NCBI GenBank assembly: GCA_963770745.1
Contig: CAVYRA010000004.1
Span: 383,667-447,666, forward strand
Source of the DNA: an uncultured Rikenellaceae bacterium
GTDB taxonomy: Bacteria > Bacteroidota > Bacteroidia > Bacteroidales > VadinHA17
Reading direction: 5' to 3'
DNA length: 64,000 bases
Part shown: positions 3,270 to 63,858 of the stretch, piece by piece
How positions within the stretch are numbered: position 1 is the first letter of the stretch
Layout of the letters: each line of letters starts with the position of its first letter
The notes under the pieces: generated by a model
Told to the model about the DNA's origin: nothing
What the model saw: only the letters and a program-made list of their open reading frames with translations
The model's database searches: none
Program-made: the position numbers and the translations under genes

Positions 3270-3271
3270 CA

Positions 3272-15772: not shown

Positions 15773-15781
15773 ATGATAAAT

Positions 15782-19402: not shown

Positions 19403-19422
19403 CTCCTTTATATTTTGATTTG

Positions 19423-19430
19423 CAAAAGTA
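19423..19430 (-). promoter_or_regulatory. candidate -7 promoter box (TACTTTTG) for metH-metF
   Basis: Exact TAnnTTTG on the minus strand, 21 nt upstream of the TTG start at 19402. Overlaps a 6-bp hairpin TTCAGG-AAC-CCTGAA (19432-19446) downstream of the kinase gene. Confidence 0.4.
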
Positions 19431-19468
19431 CTTCAGGAACCCTGAATATCAAAACGTATCTGATGAGA

Positions 19469-30089: not shown

Positions 30090-30168
30090 GCAAGAAGAGC
30101 TATTCATAACTCCTATGCAATTGTTCTTAATTGACCGGCACAGCTATTGACGGAGAGGAGAGAATTCT

Positions 30169-30176
30169 TACTTTTG
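30169..30176 (+). promoter_or_regulatory. candidate -7 promoter box (TACTTTTG) for the beta-helix T9SS cargo gene
   Basis: Exact TAnnTTTG, 57 nt upstream of ATG 30233. Confidence 0.3.
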
Positions 30177-30232
30177 CAACAATTTCGGATTCTATCAGTT
30201 ATATAAGAAAATACAGGGCTATCTATTTAAGG

Positions 30233-45200: not shown

Positions 45201-46490
45201 TATTGGTCAGTGTTTCGTTCGGATTATCGTTACCCGAGGTCGGACCGACAGGTGTAATACCTGCTACCGTCGCCCGCGTCCAGCTGAAGGTAGTTCCCCC
45301 GGTGGCACTCGTCGGCGTGTAGCTGAACGCCGTGCCGCTGCAGATCGCAGGCGGCGTAAGGCTGCTCGATAGTGTCGGTCGCGGGTTGACCGTAACCGTT
45401 ACGTTCTGCGTATTGGTACAGCCATTGGCCGTCAGTGTATATACATAGGTCACTACGATCGGCGCTGCCGTCGTATTGGTAAGTGTTTCATTCGGATTAC
45501 CGTTACCCGAGGTCGGACCGACAGGTGTAATACCTGCTACCGTCGCCCGCGTCCAGCTGAAGGTAGTTCCCCCGGTGGCACTCGTCGGCGTGTAGCTGAA
45601 CGCCGTGCCGCTGCAGATCGCAGGCGGCGTCAGGCTGCTCGATAGTGTCGGTCGCGGGTTGACCGTGACCGTTACGTTCTGCGTGTTGGTACAGCCATTG
45701 GCCGTCAGAGTATATACATAGGTCACTACGATCGGCGCTGCCGTCGTATTGGTCAGTGTTTCATTCGGATTGTCGTTACCCGAGGTCGGTCCGACAGGTG
45801 TAATACCTGCTACCGTCGCCCGCGTCCAGCTGAAGGTAGTTCCCCCGGTGGCACTCGTCGGCGTGTAGCTGAACGCCGTGCCGCTGCAGATCGCAGGCGG
45901 CGTAAGGCTGCTCGATAGTGTCGGTCGCGGGTTGACCGTAACCGTTACGTTCTGCGTGTTGGTACAGCCATTGGCCGTCAGAGTATATACATAGGTAACT
46001 ATGATCGGCGCTGCCGTCGTATTGGTAAGTGTTTCATTCGGATTACCGTTGCCCGAGGTCGGACCGACAGGTGTAATACCTGCTACCGTCGCCCGCGTCC
46101 AGCTGAAGGTAGTTCCCCCGGTGGCACTCGTCGGCGTGTAGCTGAACGCCGTGCCGCTGCAGATCGCAGGCGGCGTAAGGCTGCTCGATAGTGTCGGTCG
46201 CGGGTTGACCGTAACCGTTACGTTCTGCGTATTGGTACAGCCATTGGCCGTCAGAGTATATACATAGGTAACTACGATCGGCGCTGCCGTCGTATTCGTC
46301 AGTGTCTCATTCGGATTGTCGTTACCCGAGGTCGGACCGACAGGTGTAATACCTGCTACCGTCGCCCGCGTCCAGCTGAAGGTAGTTCCCCCGGTGGCAC
46401 TCGTCGGAGTGTAGCTGAACGCCGTGCCGCTGCAGATCGCAGGAGGCGTCAGGCTGCTCGATAGTGTCGGTCGCGGGTTGACCGTGACCG
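42211..46490 (-). CDS. giant adhesin, middle frame segment (continues into 33522..42233 after a 1-nt frame change at ~42215-42230)
   Basis: ORF 42211..45726, with the same frame open upstream to ~46490. The end ...TALVVTAIGK* versus the next frame SANDNLIGTC shows module continuity across the frame change. Contains the 273-bp repeats and SprB-type repeats. Confidence 0.75.
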
Positions 46491-46750
46491 GTTACGTTCT
46501 GCGTGTTGGTACAGCCATTGGCCGTAAGTGTATAAACATAGGTCACAACGATCGGCGCTGCCGTCGTATTGGTCAGTGTTTCATTCGGATTACCGTTGCC
46601 CGAGGTGGGTCCGACAGGTGTAATACCGGCTACCGTCGCCCGCGTCCAGCTGAAGGTAGTTCCCACAGTGGCGCTCGTAGGCGTGTAACTGAACGCCGTG
46701 CCGCTGCAGATCGCAGGAGGCGTCAGACTGCTCGAAAGCGACGGACTCGG
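44020..46750 (-). repeat. 273-bp (91-aa) coding tandem repeat x10, the seven upstream copies near-identical
   Basis: Unit boundaries (GTTGACCGT or variants) at 44020, 44293, 44566, 44839, 45112, 45385, 45658, 45931, 46204 and 46477, an exact 273-nt period. Copies from 44839 upward differ by only a few bases. Confidence 0.9.
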
Positions 46751-48270
46751 ATTCACATTTATTACATAGGAGATGGGAAGACCCGGGACAGGAGTAGTAC
46801 AGTCATCCGTAATGGAGGTAACAACAATTGTATAGACGTTGACGGCAAGAACTCCCAGATCTACGTGGGTGCCGCTGGTGTAGCCATTAATTGTATTGGG
46901 AGTGCCGTTGATGGTGTAATTAAGGGTATAAGGCCATGCACCACCGGTAATATCAACCTTGAACCAGCTCGATCCTCCGACACAAACATCGCCGCTGCCG
47001 CTAATGACTGCACCGGTCGGACTTGACCCAATGGCAATGGTCATATTGTCGGAAGCAGTTCCGCAGGGTCCTGCCGGATCATTGGTTGTAAGGGTCAGGG
47101 TTACGGTTCCGGCAGTCCTCTCGGCCGCTGATGGAGTATAAACGGCATTCAGGGCATTGGCATTCGGAACAAAACTTCCGGTACCGCCCGACCAGGTGGC
47201 AGATATCGCGGAACCTCCAATGCTCCCGGCAAGAGTAGCCGAGGCAAGGGCACAAATTGACTGGTCAGGACCGGCATTAACTGTTGCGGCAGGAAATATT
47301 GTCACTAACAGGGCATCGCTGGCCAGGGGACACGGTCCGGCAGGATCATTCGTTGTGAGAGTGAGAGTCACTGTTCCCGCACTGATATCCGCCGCACTCG
47401 GCGTATAGGTTGTGCTTAGGGCGGTGGCATTGGCAAAGGATCCCGTTCCTGAAGATGACCAGGTGGATGAGGTTGCGCCTCCTCCCCTGGTACCTGTAAG
47501 ACTTACAGTGGAAATGGAGCATATATTCTGGTCAACACCTGCGTTGACTGTTGCCGCAGGACTGATAGTCAGCACCATTGCATCTGACAAGGCTGAGCAG
47601 GGTCCGACAGGATCGTTTGTTGTAAGAGTCAGGGTGACAGTACCTGCAGTAATGTCTGCAGCGCTGGGAGTGTAGGTGGTTACAGGATTGCCGGCAGCAG
47701 CAAATGACCCTGATCCACTGGTTGACCAGGTAGAAGAAGAGGCACCTCCGCCTATGGTTCCGGTAAGATTTATAAGGGCTGTAGTTGAACAGATGTTCTG
47801 GTCTGCGCCGGCATTGACTGTCGCCACCGGGGATATTGTGACCACAAGGGCGTCACTTACCGCCGGACAGGGGCCCGCCGGATCATTAGTCGTCAGTGTG
47901 AGGGTAACAGTGCCGGCGGTTTTGTCGGCAGCACTGAATGTATAGGTAGTGGAAAGACTGGAGGGCGAGGCAAAGGTTCCTGTGCCCGAGGTAGTCCAGG
48001 TTGATGAGGTTGCGGAACCGCCTCGTGTACCGGTAACAGTTATTGAATTGGTAGTTGAACAAACCGATTGGTCTGCTCCGGCGTTAACGGTAGCCGGCTT
48101 TCCGATCAGCACTGACACTGCAGCAGAAAGCGGACTGGGACAAAGGGTGGGCGCCACTCCATATGTTCTGACAGTATAATTCCCGCTCTGGGCTATGGCA
48201 TTAAGTACAATTGTGCTTGAAGTTGCACCGCCTACGGGGGTTCCATTACGGTACCACTGGTAGGATGATG
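46491..48270 (-). CDS. giant adhesin, upstream frame segment with ~88-aa (A/T)TVNAGxDQ...TLTLTTNDPxGPC modules
   Basis: ORF 46322..48157, with the frame open upstream to ~48270. Five ~264-270-bp modules. The frame is lost at the extra G at ~46490. Confidence 0.7.
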
Positions 48271-50004
48271 AGCGGGCGGTGTATGGGGATCCGCTGTCAG
48301 CGTAATTGTACTCGATCCGTCAAAACAAAAGTCAGCGCCGGTTTTTGTAATTGTCGGTGTGTTTGGGATCGGATTAATTGTCAGTACGATATCCTCTGCC
48401 GGACCCGGACAATTTCCTGTAGATCCTGAAATCTCCCTGACATAATATGTATAAGTTCCGACTGCAGACACCGGGGGAGTGTATGTGGTTCCGGTAGCAA
48501 CCTCAAGGGTCAGGGCAGCATCATCATACCAGTGAAGCACACCGGGATTTGGTGCACCGTTCCTGACTGCAGTGAGTGTGGTAGATCCACCGAAACAGAT
48601 TGCAACGTCAGGGGCAGTAGGAAGAGGAGGCGATGCAATCAGGCGAAGTCTCGAAAAGTCAGTTACAGCATCAAGGTATGTGTAAAGGGATTGCCAGCAT
48701 CGTATGCGTTGCAGGGGCCCCAGTTACGCAGGGTAACATCGAATATATCCCCGGCCTGATCATTGATAAAATCACCCGTATGATAAATAGGATATGTTTC
48801 TGCCATGGGTGTGACAAGAGTCCTGGTAAAAAAGTCCCAGTTATACTTTAATCACAGGACCTTCAAAAAAACCGGAGGGTGTCGTGTAACCGGCCCGTTG
48901 GGGGTACCGTCAGGATTAACATGCCATGTCCCGCTAATCGGAACACCGTTATTATCGGTGACCTGCACCATCGTGCCAAAAACATCTATGAACACATTAG
49001 GAATACCTGCACCGACATGGGTACCGTAAACATACTGTACATGACGGGATAGATGTTGGGCAGATCCGGTTCAACAGGCAGCTGACAGTCAAAAACAGTC
49101 GCATCGGTAAAAGTGAAATGCAGCTATATCGTCGCCGACACAGAAAAGCGTCCGCGGATCATCAACGGGCGGATCAATCCCCAGCTCACCGGTACCCACC
49201 GGAGGAGTACCGTTATCGCTTTTGTAGTTGGGAAGCTGAATAACGATCTGATTGACTGTAACATAAAGATTGGGTTGCAATGTCCCGGTATTGTACAGAT
49301 ACGGATAGATTGATACATCCCAGGTACAGTTGCGTGTGTTGTCAGGGTATCCTGCATAAGGTTCCTGAGCCCTGAAAGTGCCTGAGCCAGCTCCGCCTAC
49401 TTCAGCATAAAACCCCAGGGTGCGGGGAAAGGCATTGGGATATTCCCACTGTATCCAGACTTTGGGCAAGAGAATAATGGATACTGTTCCTGTACCTGCG
49501 GCTCATCACGATATTGGACTCAACCTGAACGCCTACAACCGGCGCACATATATCCACCGGGGCAATTTCACCGTACAATCCGTTGGAGAAATCTGCTGAG
49601 GTGGCAATATAATTGTTTACAGCCTGAACATTTGTGAATATTCGGCTCGACCCCACCGGTAAGGGACAGGGTGCCAACCGCCGTAGTATAAGAAACCAGC
49701 ACACTGTTCCTGTTGGCATAGGAAATGCCGGATGAGAGGACTATTCTTAAAAAGTTGCCTGCGGATGTCGGGCTTCCGACCATGGGAACCGGCACCCCGC
49801 CTACAGTAATGGTCCAACCGGCCGATGTGCCGGGAAGTCACTGCTCTGTCGAACTCAAGAATAAGGGTTACCTGAGCTTCGTCAGTGAAAGTTATCGGAT
49901 ACAGGTTGGATGCGGCACCGGGGGTATCAGATATGATTGGCCTAAAACAGCATTCATGGAAATGAATGCAAGGAACATCGTAGAAAATACCTGAGCTGTT
50001 TCAT
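48271..50004 (-). pseudogene. giant adhesin N-terminal region, fragmented over many frames; signal peptide at 50004
   Basis: Fragments in different frames: 48232..48540 (WYDDAALTLEVATGTTYTP...), 49089..49469 and others. ATG 50004 gives MKQLR, and after a frame change FSTMFLAFISMNAVLGQ, a typical signal peptide. Confidence 0.55.
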
Positions 50005-50086
50005 TTTGAATGGCATCTTAATCCTAGGACCTTGTTCTTTCATGACGGAGAATTTTTCTTTACTGTACGGGTGAAATAATCTAAGT

Positions 50087-51114
50087 TTAAGACTCTCGAC
50101 CAAACGAAAAGGTTGCACCGGTAATTCCAAAAACTCTAAAAATCAAAGTTTGTTTACTAGAGGAGCAACCTTTACAACAGTAAAATGTTAACATGAGTGA
50201 ATAAGTTATTGATTCATTAGCCGTCCGGAAACCGATCTTATGTGTAAATTTAATGGTGCGGATCACTGTCTTGATCTGATTTTTCAGGCTTTGAAAGACA
50301 AGTTCATACGTCCAGGGCAGCGACTTGTCCGTCCACCGCTGGGGATGAGTGTTTATGATCACTTTTTGTGGTAGGATTCTCGTTCTCCGCCAAGCCTGAT
50401 CAGGTCAGTGGTACTGTGAATCTGTTTACGGCCCTGAAGGCGATCCCCTCAGGCGTCATACACATCAGGCTCCCCGAACAGGTCGGGTCATCCATTCGGC
50501 ATAGGATCTCCTTCCTGGCTCAGGCATGGGAAGTGCCTCCTGTCACGGATATTTGACTTCTCACCGTCCCATCGGCGACCCGTATCAGTAAGATACAGCA
50601 ACATCAGAAACATCAATGTCAAAATAGGGCTCGCAGACAATGCCGTTTTCCTGGTAGTCATAATACTTCCAAAGCAACCGGTTATCAATGGCAGAAAGAG
50701 GGCTGCCATGCATCGATATTACTTTCACACGGTAAGACTTCCTGCAGATACGCGAGGTTTGCCCGGAATCTTTCATAGGCTGCCTGGCATGTCTTCTCAC
50801 TTAACCCCCGGCTCTTTTGTGAGTTATTACAGACTGCTGAAAGATCCTCATAGTGATATGCAACCTCATGGCCCATATCCGCTAACCTCCCTGATGAACA
50901 GAATAATGATCTGCAATATGCCGATCCTGAAATGGTAACTTGCCTTTATTCCGGAAGCAGCTTCCATTTCCGCGAGTAAAAGGGCATACCTTGGTCTTCT
51001 GTCAACATCATGCCTCAGAACAATAAAACGGTCGGGTCTTCCGAGTGAGCTCACCGAACCCGTAAAACCGGGGGAAATTATCTTTTAATGCCTCAAGCAG
51101 TCTTTTGTATGTCT
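50087..51114 (-). pseudogene. polysaccharide deacetylase-like (ArnD/NodB-fold-like), multiple frame breaks
   Basis: IVLRHDVDRRPRYALLLAEMEAASGIKASYHFR (50866..51054), GHEVAYHYEDLS (50685..50876) and INTHPQRWTDKSLPWTYELV (50087..50362) lie in different frames. Confidence 0.45.
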
Positions 51115-52226
51115 TTAATGTAAAATCCATCCCCACCCGAAGTTTTTCAGTCTTGTTTTTTTTCGTGCATACCGCCGGTTTCTGTCCTGCGGATAATCCT
51201 CAATAAACCTGACAAGGAAGTCAGTCGGATCAACTGAAATCTTCAGGAACCGCTCCCTCCTGGTGGCCCAAAGTTGCTTTAGTCCATTTATAGCCAGCAC
51301 GGATTCTGTTTTAGCTAACATGCTGTCAAATTCATCAGGCTGAAAGGCATAACACAGGTCATACTTTTTCTCAAGCATGTTTGGTACGGAAAGCTTGTGA
51401 GCAAAAGAGTTGCATTTAAGAGCCGGAGTACCCAGAATTGCTGCCTCTGATGTCATGGTCTGGCTGTCTCCGACAAACATCGTGGCATAATAAATAAGAT
51501 GATGAATGAACTCGGGTGGAATTTTAAGCTGCCATTGCTGAAGCTCAGGTTCAATCTCGTGCTCAGTTGTTATAAAGACCTTGCCGGAATTCTCCAGTAG
51601 CTTAACGATCCTTAGTTTTTGTTCCATGGATAACCATTTTCCGCCAATGTCGTGATAAGCCCTGCCGGAGACAAACCGCAGGATAAAATACGGTGATGAG
51701 GTATCTATTCCTGCCAACACAGGAATTGATGGATCAGGCTTAAAATATTCAGGGTGAAGATAAAAGAGCTCATGAGTGCCTGCATATACAACATCACGTG
51801 AATGAGTACGCTGGTGAGCCAGGGCATCAGGCGACAGGACAGTATCGGCAAAAGGATGGGCAAATAAAGAAAAGAGGCGCACGGCCTCAGCATCATCGTC
51901 GTCAAGAATTATTGACTTCATCCTGTGAACAGCTGATACCTGCGCCACGGTGATTGAGGAGCCTATGGCGATATCAATATTATAATCCCGGCTATTTCCC
52001 ACAGACGGTAATTAAACCTTATCTGCGACAGCCCTTTCATCACCACCGAATTAAACTTTCGGCCGAGCGAAAGCCAGGGAATACCGTAAGCATCAAGCAA
52101 CTGCTGCGCAGAGGGTATCTCTTTTACAGTCACTGTCACCCGATGCCCCCTCGATTGAAGGATCCTGATTGCATTCCTGAACAGGTGTACCTGCCCCGGA
52201 TGCCCTATGTCAAACAGTAAATTCAT
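51115..52226 (-). pseudogene. DUF354-family protein, one frame break at ~51985-51995
   Basis: ORFs 51963..52226 (MNLLFDIGHPGQVHLFRNAIRILQSRGHRVTVT...) and 51115..52002 (...RDYNIDIAIGSSITVAQVSAV...) join as LWEIA|RDYNIDIAIG at a C/G run. Confidence 0.6.
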
Positions 52227-53059
52227 TATACTCTGTTCTGGCAGTTATCTCCCTGATCAGTCTTCCTATTATGGTAGTACCGGCATAAACCTGTTCGCCT
52301 TCCCTGACTAAAATTTCACTATTGCGCGGGATGATCATGTCAAGCTGTGAACCCCATCTGATCTTCCCGATTATCTGCCCCCTGGACATTCTATCTCCCA
52401 CAGTTGCGTTGATTATACAACGACTTACTCCGCGTGCTGCAATCTGCACAATTCCGGACCTGACACCGTCTTCACGGTCAATGACGACCGTGTTCCTTTC
52501 ATTTGTCAGGGTCGAGGAAGGAGTATTCAGCCCTATCGCTGTGCCGGGAGTATGCTGGATAAAAGTGATTCTGCCGTCAATGGGAGACCGGTTCATGTGA
52601 ACATCAAATAGCGTCATGGCAATGCCGACGAGATAGCAAGGCTGCTTCAGCATGTCTGTCTTCGTTATCTCACTGATATTGGCAACACGCATTTTTTTTA
52701 CGGTGACAGGCGTCTGATTGATTTCAAGCTCCTTGATATAAATAATGCGCCCGTCAGCAGAAGAGACAATGTCATCCGGTCCCCCTGGAATTACCTTTTC
52801 GGATTCCGGAAAAACCGGTATAGAAAAGAGAAGAATGAAAAGCAAAAGGATGATGACACCGCAGATAAACGGGACAACAACCCAGAAGGGTACGGAAACC
52901 GTATAGAAAAGTATCAGTGTCAATATTGCCCCGGGCAAACCCCAGCAGCAGATTGTCCGTGTACAGGTACCTTCTGTTGAATCCTCCTTTTGCCACCCAG
53001 AAAATAAAGAGGGCGGAAGACATTAAAAAGCACGATAAAACAATTACCAGTTGTTGCAT
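52210..53059 (-). pseudogene. phosphatidylserine decarboxylase-related protein, probable N-terminal frame break
   Basis: ORF 52210..52938 has VHMNRSPIDGRITFIQHTPG...GSQLDMIIP (PSD-family core). ORF 52772..53059 (hydrophobic, ATG 19 nt after the upstream stop) probably supplies the true N-terminus. Confidence 0.5.
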
Positions 53060-53078
53060 AGGTCAGGTATTTTTTAGT

Positions 53079-54253
53079 TCAACCTCTCTTGGGGCAATAT
53101 AAAAAGACATGAACATTAATGCCGCTGACGGTACAGGGTCTCCGGAGAAAGACCGCCCTGACCCTCTTGCCCCTAACTGACCTCAGATATTCCCGGACGC
53201 TAAGCTTCCCGGCAAAAAGAGCCTTCAGACTGAACCAGCTGTCAGTAAGCCAGTTGATCCACTTTACACCGGCAATGTAACTGTCCGGGAATGTAATATC
53301 CAGTCCATTGACAAACCGGTAGGTAATCAGCGCATAGTTTACTCCGCAGGCTTTTGCCAACCCAACCCACAGCCAGGTACGGGCATTCATCTCAATCAGT
53401 TTGTAACAGCCGTCTTCCGGATCACGCAAGAATTCAATCTCACAAACACCGGTATAATTCAGCCCCTTGAGCAATCTGGCAGAGATGTCAAGGCACTCAT
53501 CGCTCTCAATGCTCTCGGCAAGCGTAGCTGTCCCGAATGTCCAGGGATGCTCTCTAAGCTTCTGCCCAGTCCAGTGACACTTTATCTCGCCTTCAATACT
53601 GAATGCCGTGAAGGAGACGGTTCTGTTAGACCCGGTGAACGGTATCACGGACTGGGTGAGCGAGCTTGCGGTATCATGCTTCTCTTCAATCAATGTGAGT
53701 TGTGCGCCCAGTTCCTCAGCATTGTTTGCAAGCAGCGCCTTCGCCTTCATGGATTTGTAGAACGAAAGGCCAAATCTGCCCCGGGTTATCACCGGGTATC
53801 TCAATTTACTGGCACCGGCTTCACCGGGACTCTTAAAATAGCGGGTCGGGGGGATTTTTATGTCCAGCTCCTCAGCGAGATCAAGCAGGTTTTTTTTATC
53901 ATATATCCTGTTGATGATCTCAGGCCCCGGGGTGACGAGTTTATAAATGCTCTCCAGCCTGTCATGATTCCGAGAAATGGTATGAACGGCATGGTCATTG
54001 GAGGGCAACAGGAGCCATCCATGCAAGCCTTCCCTCACACCCAGGTCAGCCAGGAACAGGCAAAATCATCAGTATCAAAATCGGGTGAAGAATAGAACAT
54101 TTTACAGTACCTTGAATACCTTGCTATGCAGTTATTCCTGTCAACGACTATAACCGGAATACCGGCTTCACCCAGTGACCTTGCATTGGAGAGTCCCTGA
54201 ACATGGCCTTCAATAATGACTGCGCCGGTGATCGTATTCCTGATTTTTTCCAT
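53079..54253 (-). pseudogene. ATP-grasp ligase A, one frame break at ~54040
   Basis: ORFs 54035..54310 (MEKIRNTITGAVIIEGHVQGLSNARSLGEAGIPVIVVD from ATG 54253) and 53079..54038 (LLPSNDHAVHTISRN...DKKNLLDLAEELDIKIPPT...EIEFLRDPEDGCYKLIEMNAR). Confidence 0.6.
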
Positions 54254-54275
54254 CTTTGCTTTACCCCCCCGGATT

Positions 54276-55246
54276 TCAGTTATCTGCAAGGTTCCCGCTG
54301 TCGGATACAACTGTGCGGTATATTTCTGACAGTCTGCTGTTTACAGATTTGGCATCAAGCCCCAGTTCCATGATCCTTTCCCTTCCAGCCAGTTCAACCT
54401 CCTGATCCAACGCCATGGAAAGCTTCCCTGCAATATCATCCCGATCATATGATGTTATATAATATCCCTGCAGGCCCCGGGTGTTGGTACGGACATCGCC
54501 CACATCAGTGCTTACTACAGCCAGGTTGCAGGCCATCGCCTCCTTCACGGTATTCACCGAACCCTCCCAGGCAGAAGTAAGCAACAGGACATCTGCCGCA
54601 TTGTAATACCAGGGCATCATGTCATGATCGGCATGATGGACGGGAAGGAGCATTGCGTCATCCCGTTCCATCCTGCTGAACGAATCCGAAGCAAGGTTAA
54701 AATTTTTTTCCGGTCTGTCAGGATCTGCTGCAAACAACACTATCTTTTTTATCCGGGAGGCCAAGATGTCTCCTGGCTTCAGCCCTGTCAAGCGGACGGA
54801 ACATGTCAGTATCAACTCCGTTTGGAAGCACGGTCAGGCTGCGGATCCCGATTCTCGTCTTTATCGCTTCCGTTTTGACCAGCACCGCGTCCCGCCGGCA
54901 CCTGCAAAAGAGCCTCAGAGAGGCAGCATGAGTGATTGCCAAGCACATCACCGCCCATCAGTGCACAATCATCTATGTCTTCCGGCCGGGGAAGCTGCAA
55001 TGGCTGTCAGACCATAATGGGCATGCACAATATCAAAACCGCCGTTAAGGATCTGCTTTCTTCAAACTGGTATATTCTTCAGGTAACCCCAAAACCCCTT
55101 GCCGGTGATGCAAAAGTATTCAACGTCCAGACCCTCATTCCTTAACGACTCTCCCTGCATTACTGCGTGCTTGAGGGGCTTCGCCCTGTCGTCCGGTGTT
55201 GCCGTACGCGACGGATTATTGCCACTTCAAACGAAAAGGATCTTCA
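54276..55246 (-). pseudogene. GT4-family glycosyltransferase A, several frame breaks
   Basis: Fragments KILFV|SGNNPS..., DIVHAHYGLTAIAA, LTVLPNGVDTDMFRP (54718..54951) and YYNAADVLLLTSAWEGSVNTVKEAMACNLAVVSTDVGD (54276..54815) lie in different frames. Confidence 0.55.
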
Positions 55247-55260
55247 ACTGCTGCCTGGCA

Positions 55261-56301
55261 TTAATGATCAATCATCTTCAGGGCATGTTCGAGCCTCAGA
55301 TCATAAGATGCGTTCGAGGCGAACTCACCTGCTTTGAATGCCCACGCTCCATCCTTAAATCGGTATCGTCCGGGACTGAATTTACCAGCATCTGGTATGG
55401 ATCGGACTGTCCGAAGTAGCACTGGATCTCGTTCACAAGGTATCGTCCTTCATGGTCAAACAGGTCTATGGCGACGCAGTGAAAGACCGGTTCGTTCAGT
55501 CATCTCCCGGATGAAATCAGGCAGCATGACCGGCACCTCATCATAAGCCTTTATGAGAGTGCCGCTCGATTTGTTGTTACGGGATCTTTTTATGGGCAAA
55601 ATAAGAGCTCCCTATTCGTACACACCTCCATTCATAAAAGTGGGGAATGAACTCCTGGAGACTACAAAACCCTTTTGCGGGTTAAAATAAGTCGTCTTGT
55701 ATTCGAGCATCCGCTTCGCAAAGAAACCTCTCGCAGTAATTGCCTTCCCGACTTTCTTCCAGAGGGAACCCTTGTTCAGTTTTGGGCCGGTCTGGTATTT
55801 ATCCCCGGCCCGAAGGCTTTCCTGACATACTCTGATGCGGCCCTTCTGTCCCTGATCTAAGTCACACCGTTGCCTGAAGCCCCGATATTGGTCTTTGCCA
55901 CCACGGAAATATTTCACGGCTCTCAAGAAATCTTACAGCTTCCCCGGATGAATAGAAAACGTGTGTTTCCGGATGCGGGACAGAATTTGCCTTCAGCCAG
56001 TCGCGGAGAAACCGTTTGTTCGTAGACCAGCACCTCATCAAGCGACGGGTATACCGGGACCCCTGCATTTTATGGAGGATGTATGTCCGCTCGTCGTACA
56101 GTCAGGTCCCCCGGGGTCCGACCTGGTAGGCCGAGAAGAACAAGGTCGAATTGTTTCTCCCTGAACCTGTCAAACCATTCTGAAGAGGTCAGATGAAGCA
56201 CCGTCCAGGCTATCTCATCACTTCTCCGGCTGCATGCCTCAACCCACTGATCATGATCATCGGCTGATTCATTCCTGAAAAGTGCAAATCTCCATTTTCA
56301 T
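55261..56301 (-). pseudogene. ATP-grasp ligase B, heavily frame-broken
   Basis: Fragments FLRDWLKANSVPHPETHVFYSSGEAVRFLESREIFPWW (55862..56068) and a C-terminal ...GAWAFKAGEFASNASYDLRLEHALKMIDH* lie in different frames. ATG 56301 overlaps the upstream stop (ATGA). Confidence 0.4.
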
Positions 56302-58059
56302 CGTATCAATTCCTGTTCCAGCATATTGAACATAACAATATTGGAAAATTTATGAAGCTGACGCTCAGCAGTCAAGGGGGTGATGCAATCAGAGCCTCCA
56401 GCGCTTTTTCAGTGTCAAAATAATCATTTATCATATACCGTCGGTCCCCCGCCTTCTCCAGCCATCCAGTCAGAAACGACCTGTAAGTGTCTCCGTAAGC
56501 AAATGAAGGCGGATATTTTTTCGATCAGAGACATACCGGAATCCCTTCAGCGGCATCGATCAGGGGCCCCATCAGGTATTCACGCGTGTTGTATGTTCCT
56601 CTCTTCCCGAAGGTACCGAGATCCAGTCCGGGATACAAAAGATGCTGTAACTGCATGCTGAGCGAATAAAGACCGTGACGCTTCAGCAGGTTCCTACTGC
56701 TGTTGTCCTTATGTAAAAAACGGAACGGCTTCTGAAGAGCATCTCCAGAAAATCGATGTCAAGAAAATAGGATAGGGATAGTCCCAGTAACCCGCCGACA
56801 GGTGTACATCCTGTGAATGGTGAGGTATGCCGATCTCAAAAATGCCGTAGAAAGCCTGCATCTTCTCGGATAAACCAGTTACCATGCTCCTCATCCTCTG
56901 AAAAACGCTCGCTGATCTGAATCGGCAATGCTTGTTACTCCTGAAGTGGTCGCCCAACCTGGAGGGCAGATCGCTGATGCTTCCCGTCTTCCATATCTCC
57001 TTCAGGAAATCCGTGAAGATCAGGTCGTCAGAGATCCCCGCAGGAGCTCTCCGCCAAGGTATCCCGTGTAGAAGGCGGCATCACTGCCGGTACTTTAGAT
57101 GCAATGCATAGTTGCGGTGGCTCCTGTGAATATTTATCTCCGGGTTCAGGTCCGCAACAATCCTGGAAGCTTCATCCTCAAACGACTCCCTGGTACCAGG
57201 AGGCTCAATGATCATATTCTCTCATTCCTGATGCTCTGCTAAAATTGCGGCATAAAACTGGAATCACGTGAGCCTTTGTTGCCAGTACGTCAATCCGGTG
57301 GGCTTCTGTCCGTCGCCAAGCAATGCTGCCAGATGGGCCGCTGTCCTTCCCGCCTGTAAGGGTGATGATGGCGGATTCCGGCTTTCAAAAAACCGGCGGA
57401 AGCCGGAGATGAGTGTTTTGAACAACTTCGCAAAATCCTCAATCGCGGGCTCCGGATCATCAACACCATAACACGTAAGGTCATCAGGCTACGAAGTATT
57501 TGCTGTGGGTGGCCTTCCCTCACTTATGCTGAGGAGTCACCCCATGTCGTCTTAAATATGTCCCTGACAGGGTGTATGAAGAGGCACACGGTTAAAAAGC
57601 GACTGCATGCCGAGTGATGCAGCATCAAACTCCGGCTTAAGCCCGGTTATGATCAGGCGTCTTACCGACCCGGGGAGACAAGCCGCTCTTCCCGGGACAA
57701 GGCAGCCCTGTGCAGGGGCCTGACTGTCGGTGGAATACTCATCCTTCCCGCTGATAATGATGATGCAAATTCATTCATGTGATCGGTGTAATGACCGTCC
57801 GTATCTTTCATAGAGTGATGCCACCAGCCGGCTCTGATCAGGTGATCCGTAAGCATCGGTTTTGTCTGCTGCGCGGGATAACGTAACCCCTGATAAACAC
57901 AGAGGTCTCACCGTACACTCTCACCTCCGCCCCGTCATAAAAGAGTGTGTAATGTCCGTACTCAAATCAGTGCGACAGCCCGACTGACAATTCCCGGACA
58001 CCTCCCTGCGTGACGGGGCAGAGCAGAAAACCGTCCGTAATTTTAACCCTGGCTGTCAT
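56298..58059 (-). pseudogene. asparagine synthase-like (PP-loop) protein lacking an N-terminal Cys2, heavily frame-broken
   Basis: My own minus-strand translation: MTARVKITDGF... at 58059, a PP-loop-like LTGGKDS near 57350, GYLGGELLRG (GDELFGGY-like) near 57060, and a C-terminus TAERQLHKFSNIVMFNMLEQELIR*. The pieces lie in several frames and total ~586 codons. Confidence 0.35.
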
Positions 58060-58209
58060 CGGAAAAGCTTCCTTATCTTTTTTATGTCGCCCACCTGAAA
58101 AAGCCTTTTAGAGGATTCAAGATCCAAAAGTATTCGTAAACCCTGTAAAGCACATTCTCATGAAACTTTATCGCACTCCTGACGATCACACTTTTGCGTC
58201 TCAGGTCGT

Positions 58210-59095
58210 TCAGGACCGTAAGCCTCCTGTTACGGGCCGCGATATTCTTCTTCCCCCTGACAGTGACGTTCCCTTCTCCTCATGTGTCGGTATTGCCTCC
58301 TTAATCCCGCAATTCTCATCCAGAATAAAAACTGCTGAGTTTTTTGTCTTCCGGAACAACGCGTAACTCCTACCGTTTCTGATGAAATCACCGAAAGTCA
58401 GGCCACCGAGAACGTAAAATATATGTGATGATCTGTAAGGCTCATAAGCCTGAAGGGTATGCAAATGATGCCCCATGATCAGGTCAGCCCCGGCATCTGC
58501 CAGCACTCTGGCGGCATCGCTCTGCCACTCATCATGATAGAATGAATAATCGTTCCCCCAGTGAATGCTCACTATTACAATATCAGCCTGTGGCCTGAGA
58601 ACGCTTATCTCCCTTGTTGCCGCAGCCGGATCAAAGATGTTCAGGAAGATGTCGGTAAAGAATGAGCTCTTGGGTTTGTGGAGCGATGAACATAGGCAGC
58701 AAAGGCCACCCTGACGCCGGCAAGCTGAAAGATCACCGGACCGGCCTGTTTTGCCGTGAGCCCTGCCCCGGCGTGGTAGATACCAGCTTCATCCAGAAGC
58801 CTGACAGTCTTTGGAAGACGATCTAGTCGCAATCGAGGATGTGATTGTTTGCCAGGGAGACACAGACTACATTTAACATCTTCAGGATGTCCCTTGTAAC
58901 ACTGGCATCCGAAAAAAGATGCGCCGTCTTGCCCACGTTCGTATCCTCAGATACAACAGGCGTCTCCAGATTGGCAATGAGACCGTCGGTCTTCTCCAGT
59001 AATGATGTCAGCCATGCGAACCTGCGGCTGCTATTCTCATGATCAGTGCTGATCAGGCCGTTCAGGGCAATATCACCGGCAAGGCAAAATTCATT
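58210..59095 (-). pseudogene. CapA-family (PGA_cap) metallophosphatase-like protein, frame-broken
   Basis: FCLAGDIALNG...IANLETPV...VSLANNHILDC (my translation of 58845-59090), GIYHAGAG (58641..58832) and HWGNDYSFYHDEWQSDAARVLADAGADLIMGHHLHTLQ (58210..58572). ATG 59095 is out of frame at a T4 run. Confidence 0.6.
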
Positions 59096-59197
59096 CTGTA
59101 GCCCCGTTTGTACTCACTTTTAACTGGAGAGCAGACCTCTTCTTATCTTGCAGATAACCCCTCATGACACGAAGAATGGCGCCCCAGATCAGGAATA

Positions 59198-60345
59198 TCA
59201 GGCTCCGTAGCTCAATGGCATAGATGGTACCGGCGACCGAAAGCACCAGTTGGGCTCAAGCAGCACCCAGAATAGTGCATTCAGCTCTCTGAACAGGATG
59301 TGGTGGCGCAATGCCCTGTAAAATCTGTTCTTCTCTCTTAAAAGTCTGACAAACATGTAAAACCACAACAAAAACCCAATTAGTCCGGAACCGTTGAGCA
59401 TTATCATATAATCAGTGTGCAGCATTCTCTTGCTGTTAAAGAACAGACGGTCGTTAAATACCTCGGATCCGATTAGTTTATGGTGGAATGATCCGGAATA
59501 CCATGTACTCATAACCGCCTTATCTCGCTTATCCTTCCTTCCGTTTCTATTGTCTCCTCGGTAAGTTCAACTCTTTCGCCCCGGGCTTCAAACCGCACCT
59601 GAAATAAACTTACCAATTTCGGAAAAGCAGGAATAATCGACAAGTCCCAGTCGACCAGTATTAACGTTGCCCTTATCAGCAAGGTGACTCTTTGCTTGGC
59701 AAGCAGATATGTTATTATCCCAGCTACAGCAGAGATCAGTACTGATCGCTTTATTCCCATAATAGCTACTAGAAAGCCGATAAGGTAAATCGCCAGCACG
59801 GTTTTGCGGTATTTCTTGACAAACAGCATTGTTACGGGAAACATAAAAACCAGGATCAGAATATTCTTTGTAATATTTACACGGCCAGCCCCGAATAAAA
59901 TGTCTGATCGAGATAATCAGACGTTCCCAGGTCGAATATATTAGCGATGGCAATGTTCAGGAGGTGGAGGAGAAGGATCACAAAAAGTACCCGGAGCAAA
60001 ATCTCCAGCTTCCTGATGGAGTTAATGTAGTAGTATCCAATAGGCAGCATCATCACCCCAAGGAAAAACTTCAGGAAACAGGTTGCCCGACAGCAATCTG
60101 TCTGTAGAGAAAAGCGCCAGGATCATGTAATAGACTAGATAGAGTATAATGAACCTGTATAAGCCCTCATTGGGCACGGTCACTATGAAATAAACTGCAA
60201 ATACTCCTATTATCAGGGCACGCAGGTTGCCGGTATTAAAGATGTCTGAACTGAAATATTCCGAGGTGTTCGAAGCAATGGCATTAATCAGCGGAATGGC
60301 AAGTACAAAATAAAACTGCCATGAATATTTCACTGTCTTAACCAT
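59198..60345 (-). pseudogene. polytopic membrane protein, Wzy/O-antigen-polymerase-like, frame-broken
   Basis: Hydrophobic ORF fragments 60022..60345, 59509..59844/59588..59953 and 59198..59512 lie in different frames. Position within a glycosyltransferase locus. Assigned by context and hydrophobicity only. Confidence 0.35.
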
Positions 60346-61530
60346 TAACGACTTCGGTCAATATCTGTTTGTACTGCTGTGACCTGGCTTTCCATGAAAA
60401 TTCTTCCGGAGGCCACGTGATTAATGAATGTGATACCGCTGTCCATGATCTTTCTTATCGCCCCGACAATCATCTCAGCCTTGTTTGGCGTCAATACTAT
60501 ATGACCGGCGCCATGTAATACCTCAAGTGCAGGCGACTGCCCCCGGTCAGCAGTGCAAAGCACCGGACGGTTAATCATGGATATCTCAAATACCTTGCCC
60601 GGTGTCTGAATGCCGTAGGCATTGTCAATAACACAACTGCATCGGCATCCAGGTAAACATTTATCAGATCGCTGTGTGCAACCTGTCCTCTGAAATTATA
60701 TGGTGTGCCGCTGACCCGGTATTTAGGAACTCACTGTTATATGAGCCGTACATATCCAGCCTCACCTCTTTGGCCTGATTGATTCATTGAGCAATGAGAT
60801 GGCCTTGTACAGTTCATGATGGCTCCCTCAACCCCTGGTATAACTGCCCTGCATATACAAGGCTGAAATATTTCCTTTCACCTGATCTGGCATATTCGTC
60901 TGATTCGCTCCTGACAGCCGAAATATATGATTCGCTGACACCGTAAGGGATGATGCTCACCTGCTCCGGGCGGAGGTTCTTATATGTTCTGAGATAGTGA
61001 TCACGTGTTATCGTGTTGGTGACAATGAGCCTGTCAATGTCCTTCAGGTACCTCTTTTCAAAAGTGCGGGCCAACAGATCTTTAATGAACCCGTTCTTTG
61101 AATTTTTGTAAAACGGATCTCCAACATCAAGAATGATCCCGGCCCCTGTCTTCCGCCTCAGAGCCCTTATACTGAGCATCACCGTAAATGGAAATGCGCT
61201 GAGGACAACCACACCAAACTTATGTTCCCTTGTCAGCCTTAAAGCCTCCCGCCTTATCCTTCCTCCCTCCGTAATGACGCTGTCAGGGAAAAGCAGGGTC
61301 CTGGCCACCCTGGTGATTACAGATTTCAGTTTCCCCGGTTTCGCGCGAACACCGGGCATTGTCCCTGCCATAGTGCCCTCCCGGTTGAATAGTCTGCCAG
61401 GCAATGAATACTCCAGTGAGTGGATGGTAAGCCCGTCTTCATGCCTCACTCCTCCCTGCCCGTGTGTCAGTTCAAGGACATGAACGTCAAGAATGAACTC
61501 AGAAAGCTTAATATCTCTCTGAAGCGGATT
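60345..61530 (-). pseudogene. GT4-family glycosyltransferase B, frame-broken in the C-terminal half
   Basis: ORF 60814..61449 (N-terminal GT-B domain: VVVLSAFPFTVMLSIRALRRKTGAGIILDVGDPF...) and 60345..60578 (C-terminal fragment). The intervening 60579-60813 is readable only by changing frame. Confidence 0.5.
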
Positions 61531-61593
61531 GGCTCAGCACCTGTTATTGAGAAAGACCTTACTACAAACAGGACCCCTTTACCGGACACACTA

Positions 61594-62797
61594 TCATAGT
61601 TTTTTAACAAATGTAGTCATCAGAGCTTTCCCGTCACCTGTGACAACCAGGTAATACGACCCGGGCTTAAGAGCTGAAATATCAACCGTTTCAGACTGGC
61701 TGCCGGCAATTTTTCTTTGCATCAGAGAGCCCGTGTGACTGTATATGCTTATTCACTGTGCACAGCCTGTCCTTCCGGCAATACGACAGTCAGCTCATAT
61801 GATGCGGGATTCGGATAAACCTTCAGCACGCCATCACCAAAACTGTCGTCATTGCCCTTCGAACCATCAGAATAATCTTCCGGGAAGAGGCACTCACATG
61901 TACCAAGCAATGCTCCCATGTTTAAAAGCCTTACGGCAATCCTTACATATACCATCCTGGTCACTCCGTTATAACACACAGGTACTATCTTGTCTTTCAT
62001 TAGAGAGCGGTGATAAACGCTCTTGCCGGTCAGTACCCATTCATTGTCCGTCCAGGTCTCCGTGAGATATCCTGACAAATCGTTGAACCTGTCATATGAA
62101 TATATCTGCCTGTTCAGGTTGACAGTCCGTAAGTGCCCGTCTCAGGGAAATACTTAAGCGTCTGCCTCACCCTGGTGGCTGTCCTGTCCTGATCGTTATA
62201 CGTGAAAAGCTCAACCCAGAAAATGACATTGTCAGCAATACGTTGTTCATTCCTCTCAATAAGCCGGCCCTGGTCATCGTATATGTAGTTCTTGTATGAA
62301 AAATCCGTCCACACATCAGGCGAATACATCATCTGTCTCAGATAAGTGACCACGGTCATATCCTCTTCATAGTTATACCAGTGTTGCTGATACGGTACCC
62401 ATGATCCTTCACGATATGATGAAAACAGGTCTCGCTCCGGGTAACCATCTTCATCATAGAAGTAATCGGTCCGGGAACTGTTGATATATTCGGAATAATT
62501 CCAGACCTGAAGTATATAATTGACCTTCAATCCATTATCACTATAGGAGTAATCCTGCCTGTTGACACGATTCCTGGAAGGAAGTGACAGCCTTTCAACA
62601 ACCTGGATCAATTCCGCTGCATCAGCCGTATATATGAAAACATCCACGGGAGTGTATGTGTCTGTCTGCCCCACCCTGACATAGTTCACAACCGAATCCA
62701 GTTTCTGTAATATGACAGGCTCACAATCCAAATCCACTTGTCCGGCTGCTGGCAGAGCCATAACCAGACACAGTGATATAATGATTTCCCTTCTCAT
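61594..62797 (-). pseudogene. secreted YD-like repeat protein with T9SS type A C-terminal domain, two frame breaks
   Basis: ATG 62797 gives the signal peptide MRREIIISLCLVMALPAAGQ. YDEDGYPERD and YDDQGRLIERNEQ motifs. Breaks at ~62115 and ~61755. C-terminus KVYPNPASYELTVVL...IYSHTGSLMQRKIAGSQSETVDISALKPGSYYLVVTG. Confidence 0.6.
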
Positions 62798-62853
62798 TTT
62801 CTGAATGTTGTATTTCAATCTTATACGAACCGGGAGGGATTTTGTTCTTTGAT

Positions 62854-63858
62854 TCAACTCCTTTTTATTGGCCTTTCACGCCGTTGAAGTTTCTTAACCA
62901 CACCAACGGCCCGGCTGTAGAGCATAAAAAACCGGTAATCCACCCTTGCAGCTCTGTAAATGATGCGGTTCACCGGCCTGAAGAGATAAAATTCTGTCGT
63001 TCTGAATATCTCACTGTCGAAATACTCCCTGTACTCCCTCCACCTGCCTGTATTGATGGCTGTGATCATATGGTTGCGGATCCCCGAAAAGAAGTTATCC
63101 ATCGGTATCCTGACCCCGCTCTCCTTAGACAGGCCGCTCATCTGCCGGGCCATGAAGTGAAGATCGTCAATATGCACCGGCGAGATGCCTGATGTTGTGA
63201 TGGAACCCTCAACCTTGACGTAATTGTAAACCAGCCTGTCAGTATACATGACCCTGTCCGATCCCAGGTATGCACCCGCAGTGAAGATCAGGTCCTCATA
63301 CTTACGTCCTTCTATGAAGGTGAGGCCTCTGTCGGCAATCATCTGCCGTCTGAAGAGATGTGACCACGCTGAAACAAAAGGCTGTTTACCGTACCTGGCT
63401 ACATAACTGGTCAGATAACTCCGTCCGTCTGACACCTCCGACTCCCAGCCCGAATCAGGAAACATTAAGTTGCTGATTCCGTCTCTCACAACGTTCACCC
63501 TGAAATCGATAATATCAAGATTGTGGCGTGAACACAAGTCGTACAAATGGCCCAGTACATTCTCCTCCAGGTAGTCATCACCGTCAACAAACATAAGATA
63601 CTCGCCCTCCGCCACCCGCATTCCACTGTTTCTCGCATTGCTGAGTCCGCGGTTCGGCTGACTGATGATCTTAATATCCCGGCCACCTGAAGCATACGCC
63701 TCCGCTATCGCGAGACTTTCATCCGTGCTGCCATCATTGACACACACTACCTCGTCGTCATCCAGGTCCTGCCTTATAACAGAATCGAGGCATCTCCCAA
63801 GATAGTCCGCCGCATTGAAGAAAGGAATAATTATGCTGATCTTGTATCGGCTTTTCAT
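62854..63858 (-). CDS. GT2-family glycosyltransferase
   Basis: Intact ORF of 334 aa. ISIIIPFFNAADYLGRCLDSVIRQ...VVCVNDGSTDES...MFVDGDDYL (DxD). Confidence 0.85.
   Translation of the reverse strand: MKSRYKISIIIPFFNAADYLGRCLDSVIRQDLDDDEVVCVNDGSTDESLAIAEAYASGGRDIKIISQPNRGLSNARNSGMRVAEGEYLMFVDGDDYLEENVLGHLYDLCSRHNLDIIDFRVNVVRDGISNLMFPDSGWESEVSDGRSYLTSYVARYGKQPFVSAWSHLFRRQMIADRGLTFIEGRKYEDLIFTAGAYLGSDRVMYTDRLVYNYVKVEGSITTSGISPVHIDDLHFMARQMSGLSKESGVRIPMDNFFSGIRNHMITAINTGRWREYREYFDSEIFRTTEFYLFRPVNRIIYRAARVDYRFFMLYSRAVGVVKKLQRRERPIKRS

What the first reader, a model, noticed from the sequence alone, without database searches (positions are those of the whole stretch)
48158..62797. Sharp boundary between intact and shattered coding sequence: every gene in a 14.6-kb co-directional stretch is frame-broken
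Seen: all 11 genes I can recognise between 50.1 and 62.8 kb, plus the adhesin N-terminus, need at least one frame change to read through. The PSD-like case is inferred from operon spacing, and several genes need three or more changes. Immediately adjacent ORFs are intact: 8.7 kb (33522-42233) and 1.0 kb (GT2, 62854-63858). So are metH (3.6 kb) and rnr (2.1 kb). Motifs within the fragments are well preserved and I saw few in-frame stops other than those caused by frame shifts, so the lesions are mostly small indels. Some sit at short runs (T4 at the CapA start ~59090, a C/G run at ~51990, G to GG at 46490). By eye this stretch is more AT-rich than the rest of the window. Inference: either a low-coverage or error-prone assembly region (homopolymer-type platform errors concentrated where coverage or composition differs), or very recent relaxed selection on a horizontally acquired surface-polysaccharide locus and its neighbouring adhesin.
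Basis: partly seen in the sequence, partly recalled or inferred. Interest (0 to 1): 0.6.

Follow-up and report, generated by a model that had tools for sequence, protein, structure and literature searches.

The report
Error-dense patch in a draft assembly
A 14-kb stretch in which every gene looks broken is almost certainly a poorly supported piece of a long-read genome assembly, full of 1–2-base sequencing errors, and not a set of genes decaying in nature.

Summary
Between window positions 48270 and 62131, 11 co-directional genes and the first 1.8 kb of a giant secreted adhesin need 74–85 frame corrections, about 6 per kb. The same 11 genes are intact in seven related metagenome genomes, where the same alignment method finds 0–3 corrections.

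The pattern is that of consensus error, not gene decay:
- Every lesion is a 1–2-nt indel, with deletions about twice as common as insertions. There are no large deletions, and gene lengths are preserved.
- Only 4–6 in-frame stops occur.
- The link to homopolymers is weak.
- The dense patch ends inside the adhesin gene: 11 frameshifts in its first 1.8 kb and 2 in the remaining 14.7 kb (p≈2e-9).
- dN/dS on the window's branch stays at 0.06 in the broken adhesin part, equal to relatives, and at 0.19 in the operon.
- The "intact" remainder also carries frameshifts. asnS, which I take to be essential, has two. An amidohydrolase and a beta-helix protein have one each, and the adhesin has two more.

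The low GC and the gene order are shared with relatives, so the locus is not a recent acquisition.

The source contig is 468 kb long. The most likely cause is a stretch of very low read support in a long-read metagenome assembly. Read-level data were not available to prove this.

The parts
48270..62131 (.). Frameshift-dense patch, about 13.9 kb, with 84 inferred 1–2-nt indels (6.1 per kb)
   Evidence: Frameshift-aware alignments to L003, L001 and L005 proteins. Density varies from 1 to 14 per kb across 1-kb bins (chi-square p=0.007).
61597..62806 (-). Protein with a T9SS type-A C-terminal sorting domain; 2 frameshifts (62131, 61754)
   Evidence: The L003 orthologue matches Por_Secre_tail.
60341..61583 (-). 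GT4-family glycosyltransferase; 6 frameshifts
   Evidence: Pfam Glyco_transf_4
59094..60345 (-). Multi-pass membrane protein, read as a Wzy/O-antigen-polymerase-like protein (no family hit); 4–6 frameshifts
   Evidence: 419-aa intact orthologues in L002, L003 and L017. The Wzy-like label is my reading of the hydrophobic sequence; Pfam and NCBIfam found nothing.
58059..59098 (-). CapA/PGA_cap-family protein; 4–5 frameshifts
   Evidence: Pfam PGA_cap on two fragments
56301..58059 (-). 596-aa protein with a weak amidotransferase-like match; 16–22 frameshifts and 1 nonsense codon (57969, TCA→TGA)
   Evidence: NCBIfam TIGR03104, partial, E=4.7e-6
55264..56301 (-). 349-aa RimK/LysX-like ATP-grasp ligase; 10 frameshifts and 2 in-frame stops
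54279..55247 (-). GT1-type glycosyltransferase; 4–5 frameshifts and 2 nonsense codons (TTA→TGA at 55229 and 55064)
   Evidence: Pfam Glyco_trans_1_4
53082..54253 (-). 392-aa ATP-grasp carboxylate–amine ligase (some sources name homologues D-aspartate ligase); 3 frameshifts
52249..53059 (-). Phosphatidylserine-decarboxylase-like protein; 3 frameshifts in the N-terminal 90 codons
   Evidence: Pfam PS_Dcarbxylase
51166..52226 (-). DUF354 protein; 1 frameshift (51992)
50261..51130 (-). 291-aa protein with no family hit; 9–10 frameshifts
33522..50094 (-). One giant adhesin gene (~5,500 codons) with Ig-like, PKD-like and SprB repeats and a CHU_C T9SS signal. It has 11 frameshifts in 50094–48270, then one at 46490 (an extra C compared with five sister repeat copies) and one at ~42215.
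62854..63858 (-). GT2 glycosyltransferase, unbroken; lies just outside the right edge of the patch
   Evidence: Pfam Glycos_transf_2 covers profile positions 1–164 of 168. Not orthologous to the relatives' upstream GT2 (22–25% identity).
8431..9821 (-). asnS (asparagine–tRNA ligase) needing two frame corrections (~9520 and ~9280); shows background error outside the patch
   Evidence: Three-frame reading. The repaired protein matches the NF003037 equivalog end to end, 672.7 bits against a cut-off of 414. One search shows the C-terminal fragment alone.
3266..4418 (+). Amidohydrolase split by one frameshift inside a GC-rich Gly/Asp/Ser-coding repeat (~3540–3590)
   Evidence: The repaired protein aligns colinearly to hydrolase models (profile 48–363 of 418) and scores higher than the fragment.
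30131..32973 (+). Beta-helix (PMP-repeat) protein with a probable frameshift at ~30790
   Evidence: The repeat motif continues in the other frame. No orthologue was available to confirm it.

Best explanation
The shattered stretch is a consensus-quality artefact.

The window comes from a 468-kb contig of an uncultured Bacteroidales-like (Rikenellaceae-related) bacterium. The contig was most likely assembled from error-prone long reads, and I infer Nanopore-type metagenome assembly with light polishing.

Over about 13.9 kb (48270–62131) the consensus seems to rest on one or very few reads. I estimate that it therefore keeps close to raw-read error: about 0.6% small indels (deletions > insertions) and roughly 1% substitutions. 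The rest of the contig has about 50 times fewer indels.

The underlying genes are probably intact in the organism. They are an 11-gene surface-polysaccharide-type operon and the start of a giant T9SS adhesin.

Shown directly:
- the lesion spectrum;
- the position of the boundaries;
- preserved purifying selection;
- background frameshifts elsewhere in the window;
- conservation of the locus in relatives.

Inferred: the sequencing platform and low local read support as the cause.
For: 1. All 84–85 lesions are 1–2-nt frame changes (45 −1, 26 +1, 11 −2, 3 +2). There are no large deletions or insertions, and every gene aligns end to end with its orthologue.
2. Only 6 in-frame stops occur, and about 4 are clean single substitutions. 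That is about what I expect from ~1% random substitution.
3. The dense zone ends inside one gene. The adhesin has 11 frameshifts in its first 1,824 nt and 2 in the next 14,748 nt (binomial p=1.8e-9).
4. dN/dS on the window's branch is 0.06 in the broken adhesin part, the same as relatives (0.057–0.058). In the operon it is 0.19, against 0.10–0.15 in relatives.
5. At residues invariant in all relatives the window differs at 5.4%. The figures are 1.7% for L003, 3.3% for L002 and 4.0% for L017. This implies only about 1% extra substitution per nt beside 0.6% indels. The resulting ratio of about 2:1 is far from the roughly 10:1 I recall for natural bacterial mutation.
6. Indels are only weakly tied to homopolymers.
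7. The assembly is indel-prone elsewhere. asnS needs 2 corrections yet is otherwise perfectly conserved. An amidohydrolase needs 1, a beta-helix protein 1, and the adhesin 2 more. That is about 0.125 per kb.
8. Relative L002, a Nanopore-only Flye+Medaka genome (title; methods in PMC12313526), also has 2 frameshifts in its adhesin. The short-read-style genomes L001, L003, L005 and L017 have none beyond gene-start artefacts.
9. Locus, gene order and GC (0.48) are shared with relatives.
10. The source contig is 467,924 bp long.
11. Indel-driven fragmented gene calls at low Nanopore coverage are a documented problem (PMC9262707).
Against: - No reads or coverage data could be examined, so low read support is inferred and not shown.
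- The patch roughly coincides with a functional unit (one operon plus the adjacent gene start). Real inactivation would also predict that.
- Operon dN/dS on the window's branch is somewhat raised (0.19 against 0.10–0.15), and it is highest in the genes with most frameshifts (0.28). The window also has more changes at conserved residues. Relaxed selection would produce this as well as substitution errors would.
- The sequencing platform of the source is not known. The exact-match look-ups of the source contig failed.
Confidence: 0.88

Rival explanations
1. Genuine pseudogenisation. The polysaccharide operon and the adhesin were inactivated in this lineage and have since accumulated indels and substitutions under relaxed selection.
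For: - The affected stretch approximates a functional unit.
- dN/dS is raised on the window's branch in the operon (0.19 against 0.10–0.15, and 0.28 in the most broken genes).
- There is an excess of changes at conserved residues (5.4% against 1.7–4.0%).
- About 4 true nonsense codons are present.
Against: - At natural indel:substitution ratios of about 1:10 (my recollection of mutation-accumulation data), 85 indels imply roughly 6% neutral divergence. The excess found is about 1% in the operon and close to zero in the broken adhesin part.
- dN/dS stays far below 1.
- No indel is longer than 2 nt and there are no large deletions or insertion sequences.
- Indels are not concentrated in homopolymers.
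- A dead 16.6-kb adhesin should decay evenly, yet 11 of its 13 breaks lie in the first 11% of the gene.
- The same contig has frameshifts in asnS, which is otherwise perfectly conserved.
Confidence: 0.07
2. Systematic platform error at homopolymers or methylation motifs in a region of different base composition, with coverage otherwise normal.
For: - Slight enrichment of runs ≥4 nt near the sites (26% against 17%, p=0.036).
- The region has lower GC.
Against: - About three quarters of the sites have no run ≥4 within ±6 nt.
- GC is equally low in the unbroken GT2 gene (0.50), and the patch ends inside genes without any composition step.
- Systematic errors would recur across the contig wherever the motif occurs, rather than in one 14-kb block.
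- I did not run a motif-enrichment test for methylation sites.
Confidence: 0.04
3. Collapsed consensus of co-occurring strains or close species that differ in this locus, so that polishing produced a mosaic with spurious indels. This is a sub-type of the artefact in which the cause is heterogeneity rather than low depth.
For: - The flank just upstream is variable among relatives. The GT2 gene is non-orthologous (22–25% identity), and the T9SS-tail protein is only 56% identical.
- Surface-polysaccharide loci are commonly strain-variable (general knowledge).
- Microdiversity is reported as a problem in such assemblies (PMC12313526).
Against: - The 11-gene operon itself is conserved in content and order in all seven relatives.
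- A single consensus sequence cannot reveal heterogeneity.
- I count this reading inside the 0.88 given to the best explanation, as one of its possible causes.
Confidence: 0.25

Closest known systems
Indel-induced fragmented gene calls in long-read (Nanopore or PacBio CLR) assemblies at low coverage. These are the problem that IDEEL-type length tests measure and that frameshift correctors such as proovframe address (PMC9262707; bioRxiv 10.1101/2021.08.23.457338, listed).
   Same: - Lesions are small indels that split otherwise conserved genes.
- A background of sporadic frameshifts runs across the contig, including in a gene I take to be essential.
- The contig is long (468 kb).
- A known Nanopore-only relative (L002) shows similar sporadic breaks.
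   Different: - The errors here are concentrated about 50-fold in one 14-kb block.
- They are mostly outside homopolymers. That points to near-raw-read support locally rather than the usual residual homopolymer errors of a well-covered, polished consensus.
Decaying pseudogene clusters in bacteria undergoing genome reduction or niche change, for example inactivated capsule or O-antigen loci
   Same: Many adjacent co-directional surface-structure genes are all disrupted, and deletions outnumber insertions.
   Different: - There are no large deletions or mobile-element insertions.
- The frameshift:nonsense ratio is about 14:1.
- dN/dS is still 0.06–0.19.
- The boundary falls inside a gene.
- Gene lengths are preserved to within a few codons.

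Membership tests
Long-read assembly consensus-error patch | Lesions are almost exclusively 1–2-nt indels, with gene lengths and order preserved | tested here: met
   85 events, all ±1 or ±2 nt. Each gene needs at most 8 whole-codon gaps. All genes align end to end.
Long-read assembly consensus-error patch | The error zone is independent of gene or functional boundaries | tested here: met
   The left edge at 48270 lies 1.8 kb inside the 16.6-kb adhesin gene (p=1.8e-9). The right edge at 62131 lies inside the T9SS-tail gene.
Long-read assembly consensus-error patch | Frameshifts also occur in conserved or essential genes elsewhere in the same assembly | tested here: met
   asnS has 2. The repaired protein is a full-length equivalog match at 672.7 bits. 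An amidohydrolase has 1, and the adhesin has 2 more.
Long-read assembly consensus-error patch | Locally low read depth, or indels not supported by most reads | not testable with these tools
   No reads were available. The source record could not be retrieved.
Long-read assembly consensus-error patch | The assembly was made from long reads | tested here: inconclusive
   Only indirect evidence. The contig is 467,924 bp and is held by NCBI and ENA, like the Nanopore-only relative L002.
Genuine pseudogene decay | Relaxed selection: dN/dS on the lineage approaches 1 | tested here: not met
   Branch dN/dS is 0.06 in the broken adhesin part and 0.19 in the operon, against 0.06 and 0.10–0.15 in relatives.
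Genuine pseudogene decay | A mixed lesion spectrum: nonsense codons, multi-base and large deletions, insertion sequences, and indels mostly in simple repeats | tested here: not met
   6 stops against 85 frameshifts. No indel exceeds 2 nt. Homopolymer association is weak.
Genuine pseudogene decay | Even decay along a dead gene | tested here: not met
   The adhesin has 11 breaks in 1.8 kb and 2 in 14.7 kb.
Recently acquired genomic island | Atypical composition together with absence from, or different context in, close relatives | tested here: not met
   The operon is syntenic next to the adhesin in L001, L002, L003 and L005 (L017's contig ends inside the operon). Operon GC is 0.48 in the window, L002 and L003 alike.
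Homopolymer-type platform error | Indels sit in homopolymer runs | tested here: not met
   26% of sites lie within ±6 nt of a run ≥4, against 17% of random positions. The mean longest run is 3.05 against 2.74.

The most novel reading that the evidence does not exclude
The indels are real. Under this reading, a natural population carries a polysaccharide operon and an adhesin 5' end riddled with about 6 small indels per kb while their substitution pattern still looks selected. That would imply a localised, indel-biased mutational process, or recoding or tolerance of frameshifts, confined to a 14-kb tract.
Probability: 0.04. Interest if true: 0.6.

Novelty: not a real feature. Interest (0 to 1): 0.08.

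Why it matters
The value is mainly as a caution. Taken at face value, this stretch would be annotated as a dozen pseudogenes and read as loss of a capsule-like locus and a major adhesin. The evidence indicates that the genes are probably intact and that the sequence needs polishing.

It also shows that a consensus sequence alone, together with relatives, can separate error from decay. Four things did the work here:
- the lesion spectrum;
- a boundary that falls inside a gene;
- branch-specific dN/dS;
- frameshifts in a conserved housekeeping gene elsewhere on the contig.

Tried and rejected
- **Source look-ups.** Exact-protein look-ups to recover the source contig or another assembly of the same species all returned nothing: GT2, P0121 and P0246. 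The big protein search found no same-species copy of the ATP-grasp gene; the best hits were 90% (P0001) and 89% (P0002). A direct comparison with an independent assembly was therefore impossible.
- **Three-taxon counts of unique differences**. These showed a raised ratio of codon positions 1+2 to position 3 on the window's branch (about 1.0 against 0.7–0.8). I first suspected unresolved pairs of close frameshifts. Lowering the frameshift penalty found 11 more events and reduced the ratio only slightly. A run-length test showed that the window's mismatches are no more clustered than L002's. A modest genuine excess of substitutions therefore remains, about 1% per nt by the invariant-site test.
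- **Upstream GT2 as a control.** This failed because the relatives' GT2 genes are not orthologous to the window's (22–25% identity).
- **Recent horizontal acquisition.** Rejected on synteny and shared GC.
- **Chimeric join.** Considered and rejected. Relatives L002 and L003 are colinear across the adhesin-side boundary and as far as the T9SS-tail gene, and identity to them is similar inside and outside the patch.
- **Pure homopolymer error.** Rejected.
- **Not attempted.** I did not test for enrichment of methylation motifs around the indels.
Full report
**What is in the window**

The window is from a Bacteroidales-type bacterium. Its closest relatives are metagenome genomes labelled Bacteroidales or Rikenellaceae, with about 74–83% nucleotide identity over the region.

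On the minus strand, from 62.8 kb down to 50.3 kb, lie 11 co-directional genes:
- a protein with a T9SS sorting tail;
- a GT4 glycosyltransferase;
- a membrane protein I read as Wzy-like (no family hit);
- a CapA/PGA_cap protein;
- a 596-aa protein with a weak amidotransferase-like match;
- a RimK/LysX-like ATP-grasp ligase;
- a GT1 glycosyltransferase;
- a second ATP-grasp ligase;
- a phosphatidylserine-decarboxylase-like protein;
- a DUF354 protein;
- a 291-aa protein with no family hit.

Next comes a single giant adhesin gene running from 50094 to 33522. It has Ig-like, PKD-like and SprB repeats and a CHU_C T9SS signal at its C-terminus.

**Checking the observation**

ORF fragmentation is obvious. 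Between 48 and 62 kb the longest stop-free stretch covering a position averages 86–273 codons. In most of the rest of the window the average is 250–2900 codons.

Relatives give exact references. In L003 all 11 genes are intact (407, 415, 419, 349, 596, 349, 324, 401, 270, 354 and 291 aa). In L002 and L017 every gene their loci cover is also intact, in the same order. In L001, L003 and L005 the adhesin start stays open for 785–1256 codons to the contig end.

I wrote a protein-to-DNA aligner that allows frame changes. With the L003 proteins as reference it finds 74 frame changes in the window at a strict penalty and 85 at a moderate one. With the same settings L017 gives 0 and L002 gives 2–3. 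More than 50 further gene comparisons with more distant relatives give 0–2 each, mostly where the reference ORF start overlaps the upstream gene.

Every one of the 11 genes is hit, from 1 frameshift in DUF354 to 22 in the 596-aa gene. The core observation therefore stands.

**Corrections to the observation**

1. The dense zone runs from 62131 to 48270.
2. The "intact 8.7-kb ORF" is not a separate intact gene. The reading frame continues across ~42215. There, "…LVVTAIGK*" continues in another frame as "…NDNLIGTC…", matching the next repeat unit. It also continues across 46490, where this copy of a 273-nt tandem repeat has GTAACCGGT and five sister copies have GTAACGGT.
3. The supposedly intact 1–33 kb part has frame breaks too.
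   - asnS (8431–9821) reads through three frames. When joined, it matches the asparagine–tRNA ligase equivalog over its full length, at 672.7 bits against a cut-off of 414.
   - An amidohydrolase (3266–4418) is split inside a GC-rich repeat. When joined, it aligns colinearly and scores higher.
   - A beta-helix repeat protein changes frame at ~30790.
   - metH and rnr are indeed intact.

   The background is therefore about 6 frameshifts in 48 kb, against 84 in 13.9 kb.
4. The GC dip is real (0.48 against 0.53–0.56). However, it extends into the unbroken GT2 gene and is identical in the operons of L002 and L003 (0.48).

**Error or decay?**

Several independent lines point to error.

*Lesion spectrum.* All events are ±1 or ±2 nt (45 −1, 26 +1, 11 −2, 3 +2). 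No gene has lost or gained more than a few codons. Only 6 in-frame stops occur, and about 4 are clean single-base changes such as TTA→TGA. Homopolymers are only slightly enriched near the sites: runs ≥4 are found at 26% of sites against 17% of random positions (p=0.036). From my own knowledge, natural small indels in bacteria concentrate in simple repeats and come with larger deletions.

*Geography.* The adhesin has 11 frameshifts in its first 1,824 nt and 2 in the remaining 14,748 nt (p=1.8e-9). At the patch rate about 89 would be expected in the remainder. On the other side, about 10 would be expected in the 1.7 kb of coding sequence beyond 62131, and none is seen. A dead gene should decay evenly along its length. 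A poorly supported stretch of an assembly pays no attention to gene borders. Within the patch, density varies on a kilobase scale from 1 to 14 per kb (p=0.007).

*Selection signature.* With frames corrected and codons near frameshifts excluded, dN/dS on the window's own branch is 0.06 in the broken adhesin part, against 0.057–0.058 in relatives. In the operon it is 0.19, against 0.10–0.15.

*Substitution load.* At residues invariant in all other relatives the window differs at 5.4%. L003, L002 and L017 differ at 1.7%, 3.3% and 4.0%. I read the excess as roughly 1% random substitution per nt. That is about what is needed to give the 4–6 nonsense codons seen. It makes the substitution:indel ratio about 2:1. 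Natural mutation gives around 10:1 (my knowledge), which would demand about 6% neutral divergence for 85 indels. That much divergence is excluded, most clearly in the adhesin part.

*The assembly is indel-prone elsewhere.* The two frameshifts in an otherwise perfectly conserved asnS are hard to explain as biology.

*Comparison with relatives.* L002 is a Nanopore-only Flye+Medaka genome (record title; methods in PMC12313526). It has sporadic breaks of its own in the adhesin. The short-read-style assemblies do not.

**Source**

A 598-aa protein identical to part of the window is on record from a single 467,924-bp contig held by NCBI and ENA. The contig itself could not be retrieved. A contig of that length from an uncultured relative of these genomes fits a long-read assembly. 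This is inference.

Published work documents that Nanopore consensus indels fragment gene calls and that about 40× coverage is needed for near-finished quality (PMC9262707).

**Most likely mechanism**

Over about 14 kb, roughly one long read in length, the consensus rests on one or very few reads. Alternatively it rests on a minority haplotype that polishing could not fix. Either way I estimate that it keeps close to raw-read error, about 1.6% in total. Whether the cause is a chance dip in depth in a low-abundance genome or strain heterogeneity at a surface-structure locus cannot be told from the consensus.

The part of the locus just upstream (GT2 and the T9SS-tail protein) is variable among relatives. 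This gives some support to the heterogeneity variant.

**What argues the other way**

- The patch roughly matches a functional unit.
- Operon dN/dS and changes at conserved sites are somewhat raised on the window's branch, most of all in the genes with most frameshifts.

Substitution errors explain these as well as relaxed selection does. Without reads I leave about 7% for genuine decay and about 4% for something stranger.

**Comparison with known things, and verdict**

This is the familiar problem of indel-fragmented genes in long-read assemblies. It is unusual only in being concentrated about 50-fold in one block and in not being driven by homopolymers. It is not a biological feature.

The 11-gene cluster next to the giant adhesin is itself conserved in at least seven genomes and is probably functional in this organism. 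Interest is low. The practical message is to re-polish before annotating pseudogenes.

Noticed in passing
window 8431-9821 (-): asnS (asparagine–tRNA ligase) is split over three frames (breaks at ~9520 and ~9280). When joined it is a full-length, high-scoring equivalog match. Neither break lies in a homopolymer.
   Followed up: yes
window 3266-4418 (+): An amidohydrolase (TRZ/ATZ or aminofutalosine-deaminase-like) is split by a frameshift inside a GC-rich repeat coding for a Gly/Asp/Ser-rich linker (~3540–3590).
   Followed up: partly
window 30131-32973 (+): A beta-helix / PMP-repeat protein probably has one frameshift at ~30790. The GGAI-type repeat continues in the other frame. No orthologue was checked.
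   Followed up: partly
window 13392-13451 (+): A SAM-II (long-loop) riboswitch hit (56.3 bits against a gathering score of 44) lies just upstream of metK (13509–14768). MTHFR (14810–15772) and metH (15782–19402) lie next to it on the opposite strand.
   Followed up: no
window 44831-46735: Seven copies of a 273-nt tandem repeat, 95% identical, inside the adhesin; each encodes one PKD-like unit. One copy carries the extra C at 46490.
   Followed up: partly
window 50261-62806; L002, L003, L004, L015 (L001, L005, L017 in part): The 11-gene cluster is conserved in content and order in at least seven metagenome genomes. In L001, L002, L003 and L005 it sits directly upstream of the giant T9SS adhesin. 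It contains two ATP-grasp ligases, an amidotransferase-like protein, CapA, a PSD-like protein, DUF354, GT4, GT1 and a Wzy-like protein. Its product is unknown, and several members have no family hit.
   Followed up: partly
window 62854-63858; L002 1-1140; L003 60-1133: The GT2 gene upstream of the cluster is not orthologous between the window and its relatives (22–25% identity). Conserved gene order therefore ends at about 62.8 kb.
   Followed up: partly
L002 14837-14883: The Nanopore-only relative L002 has its own two frame changes near codon 290–305 of the adhesin. They split it into ORFs 13991–14857 and 14854–20442.
   Followed up: partly
window 19469-21162 (-): A small PqqD-family ORF (20875–21162) lies directly upstream of a 468-aa ORF with no Pfam hit. 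This could be a peptide-modification pair.
   Followed up: no
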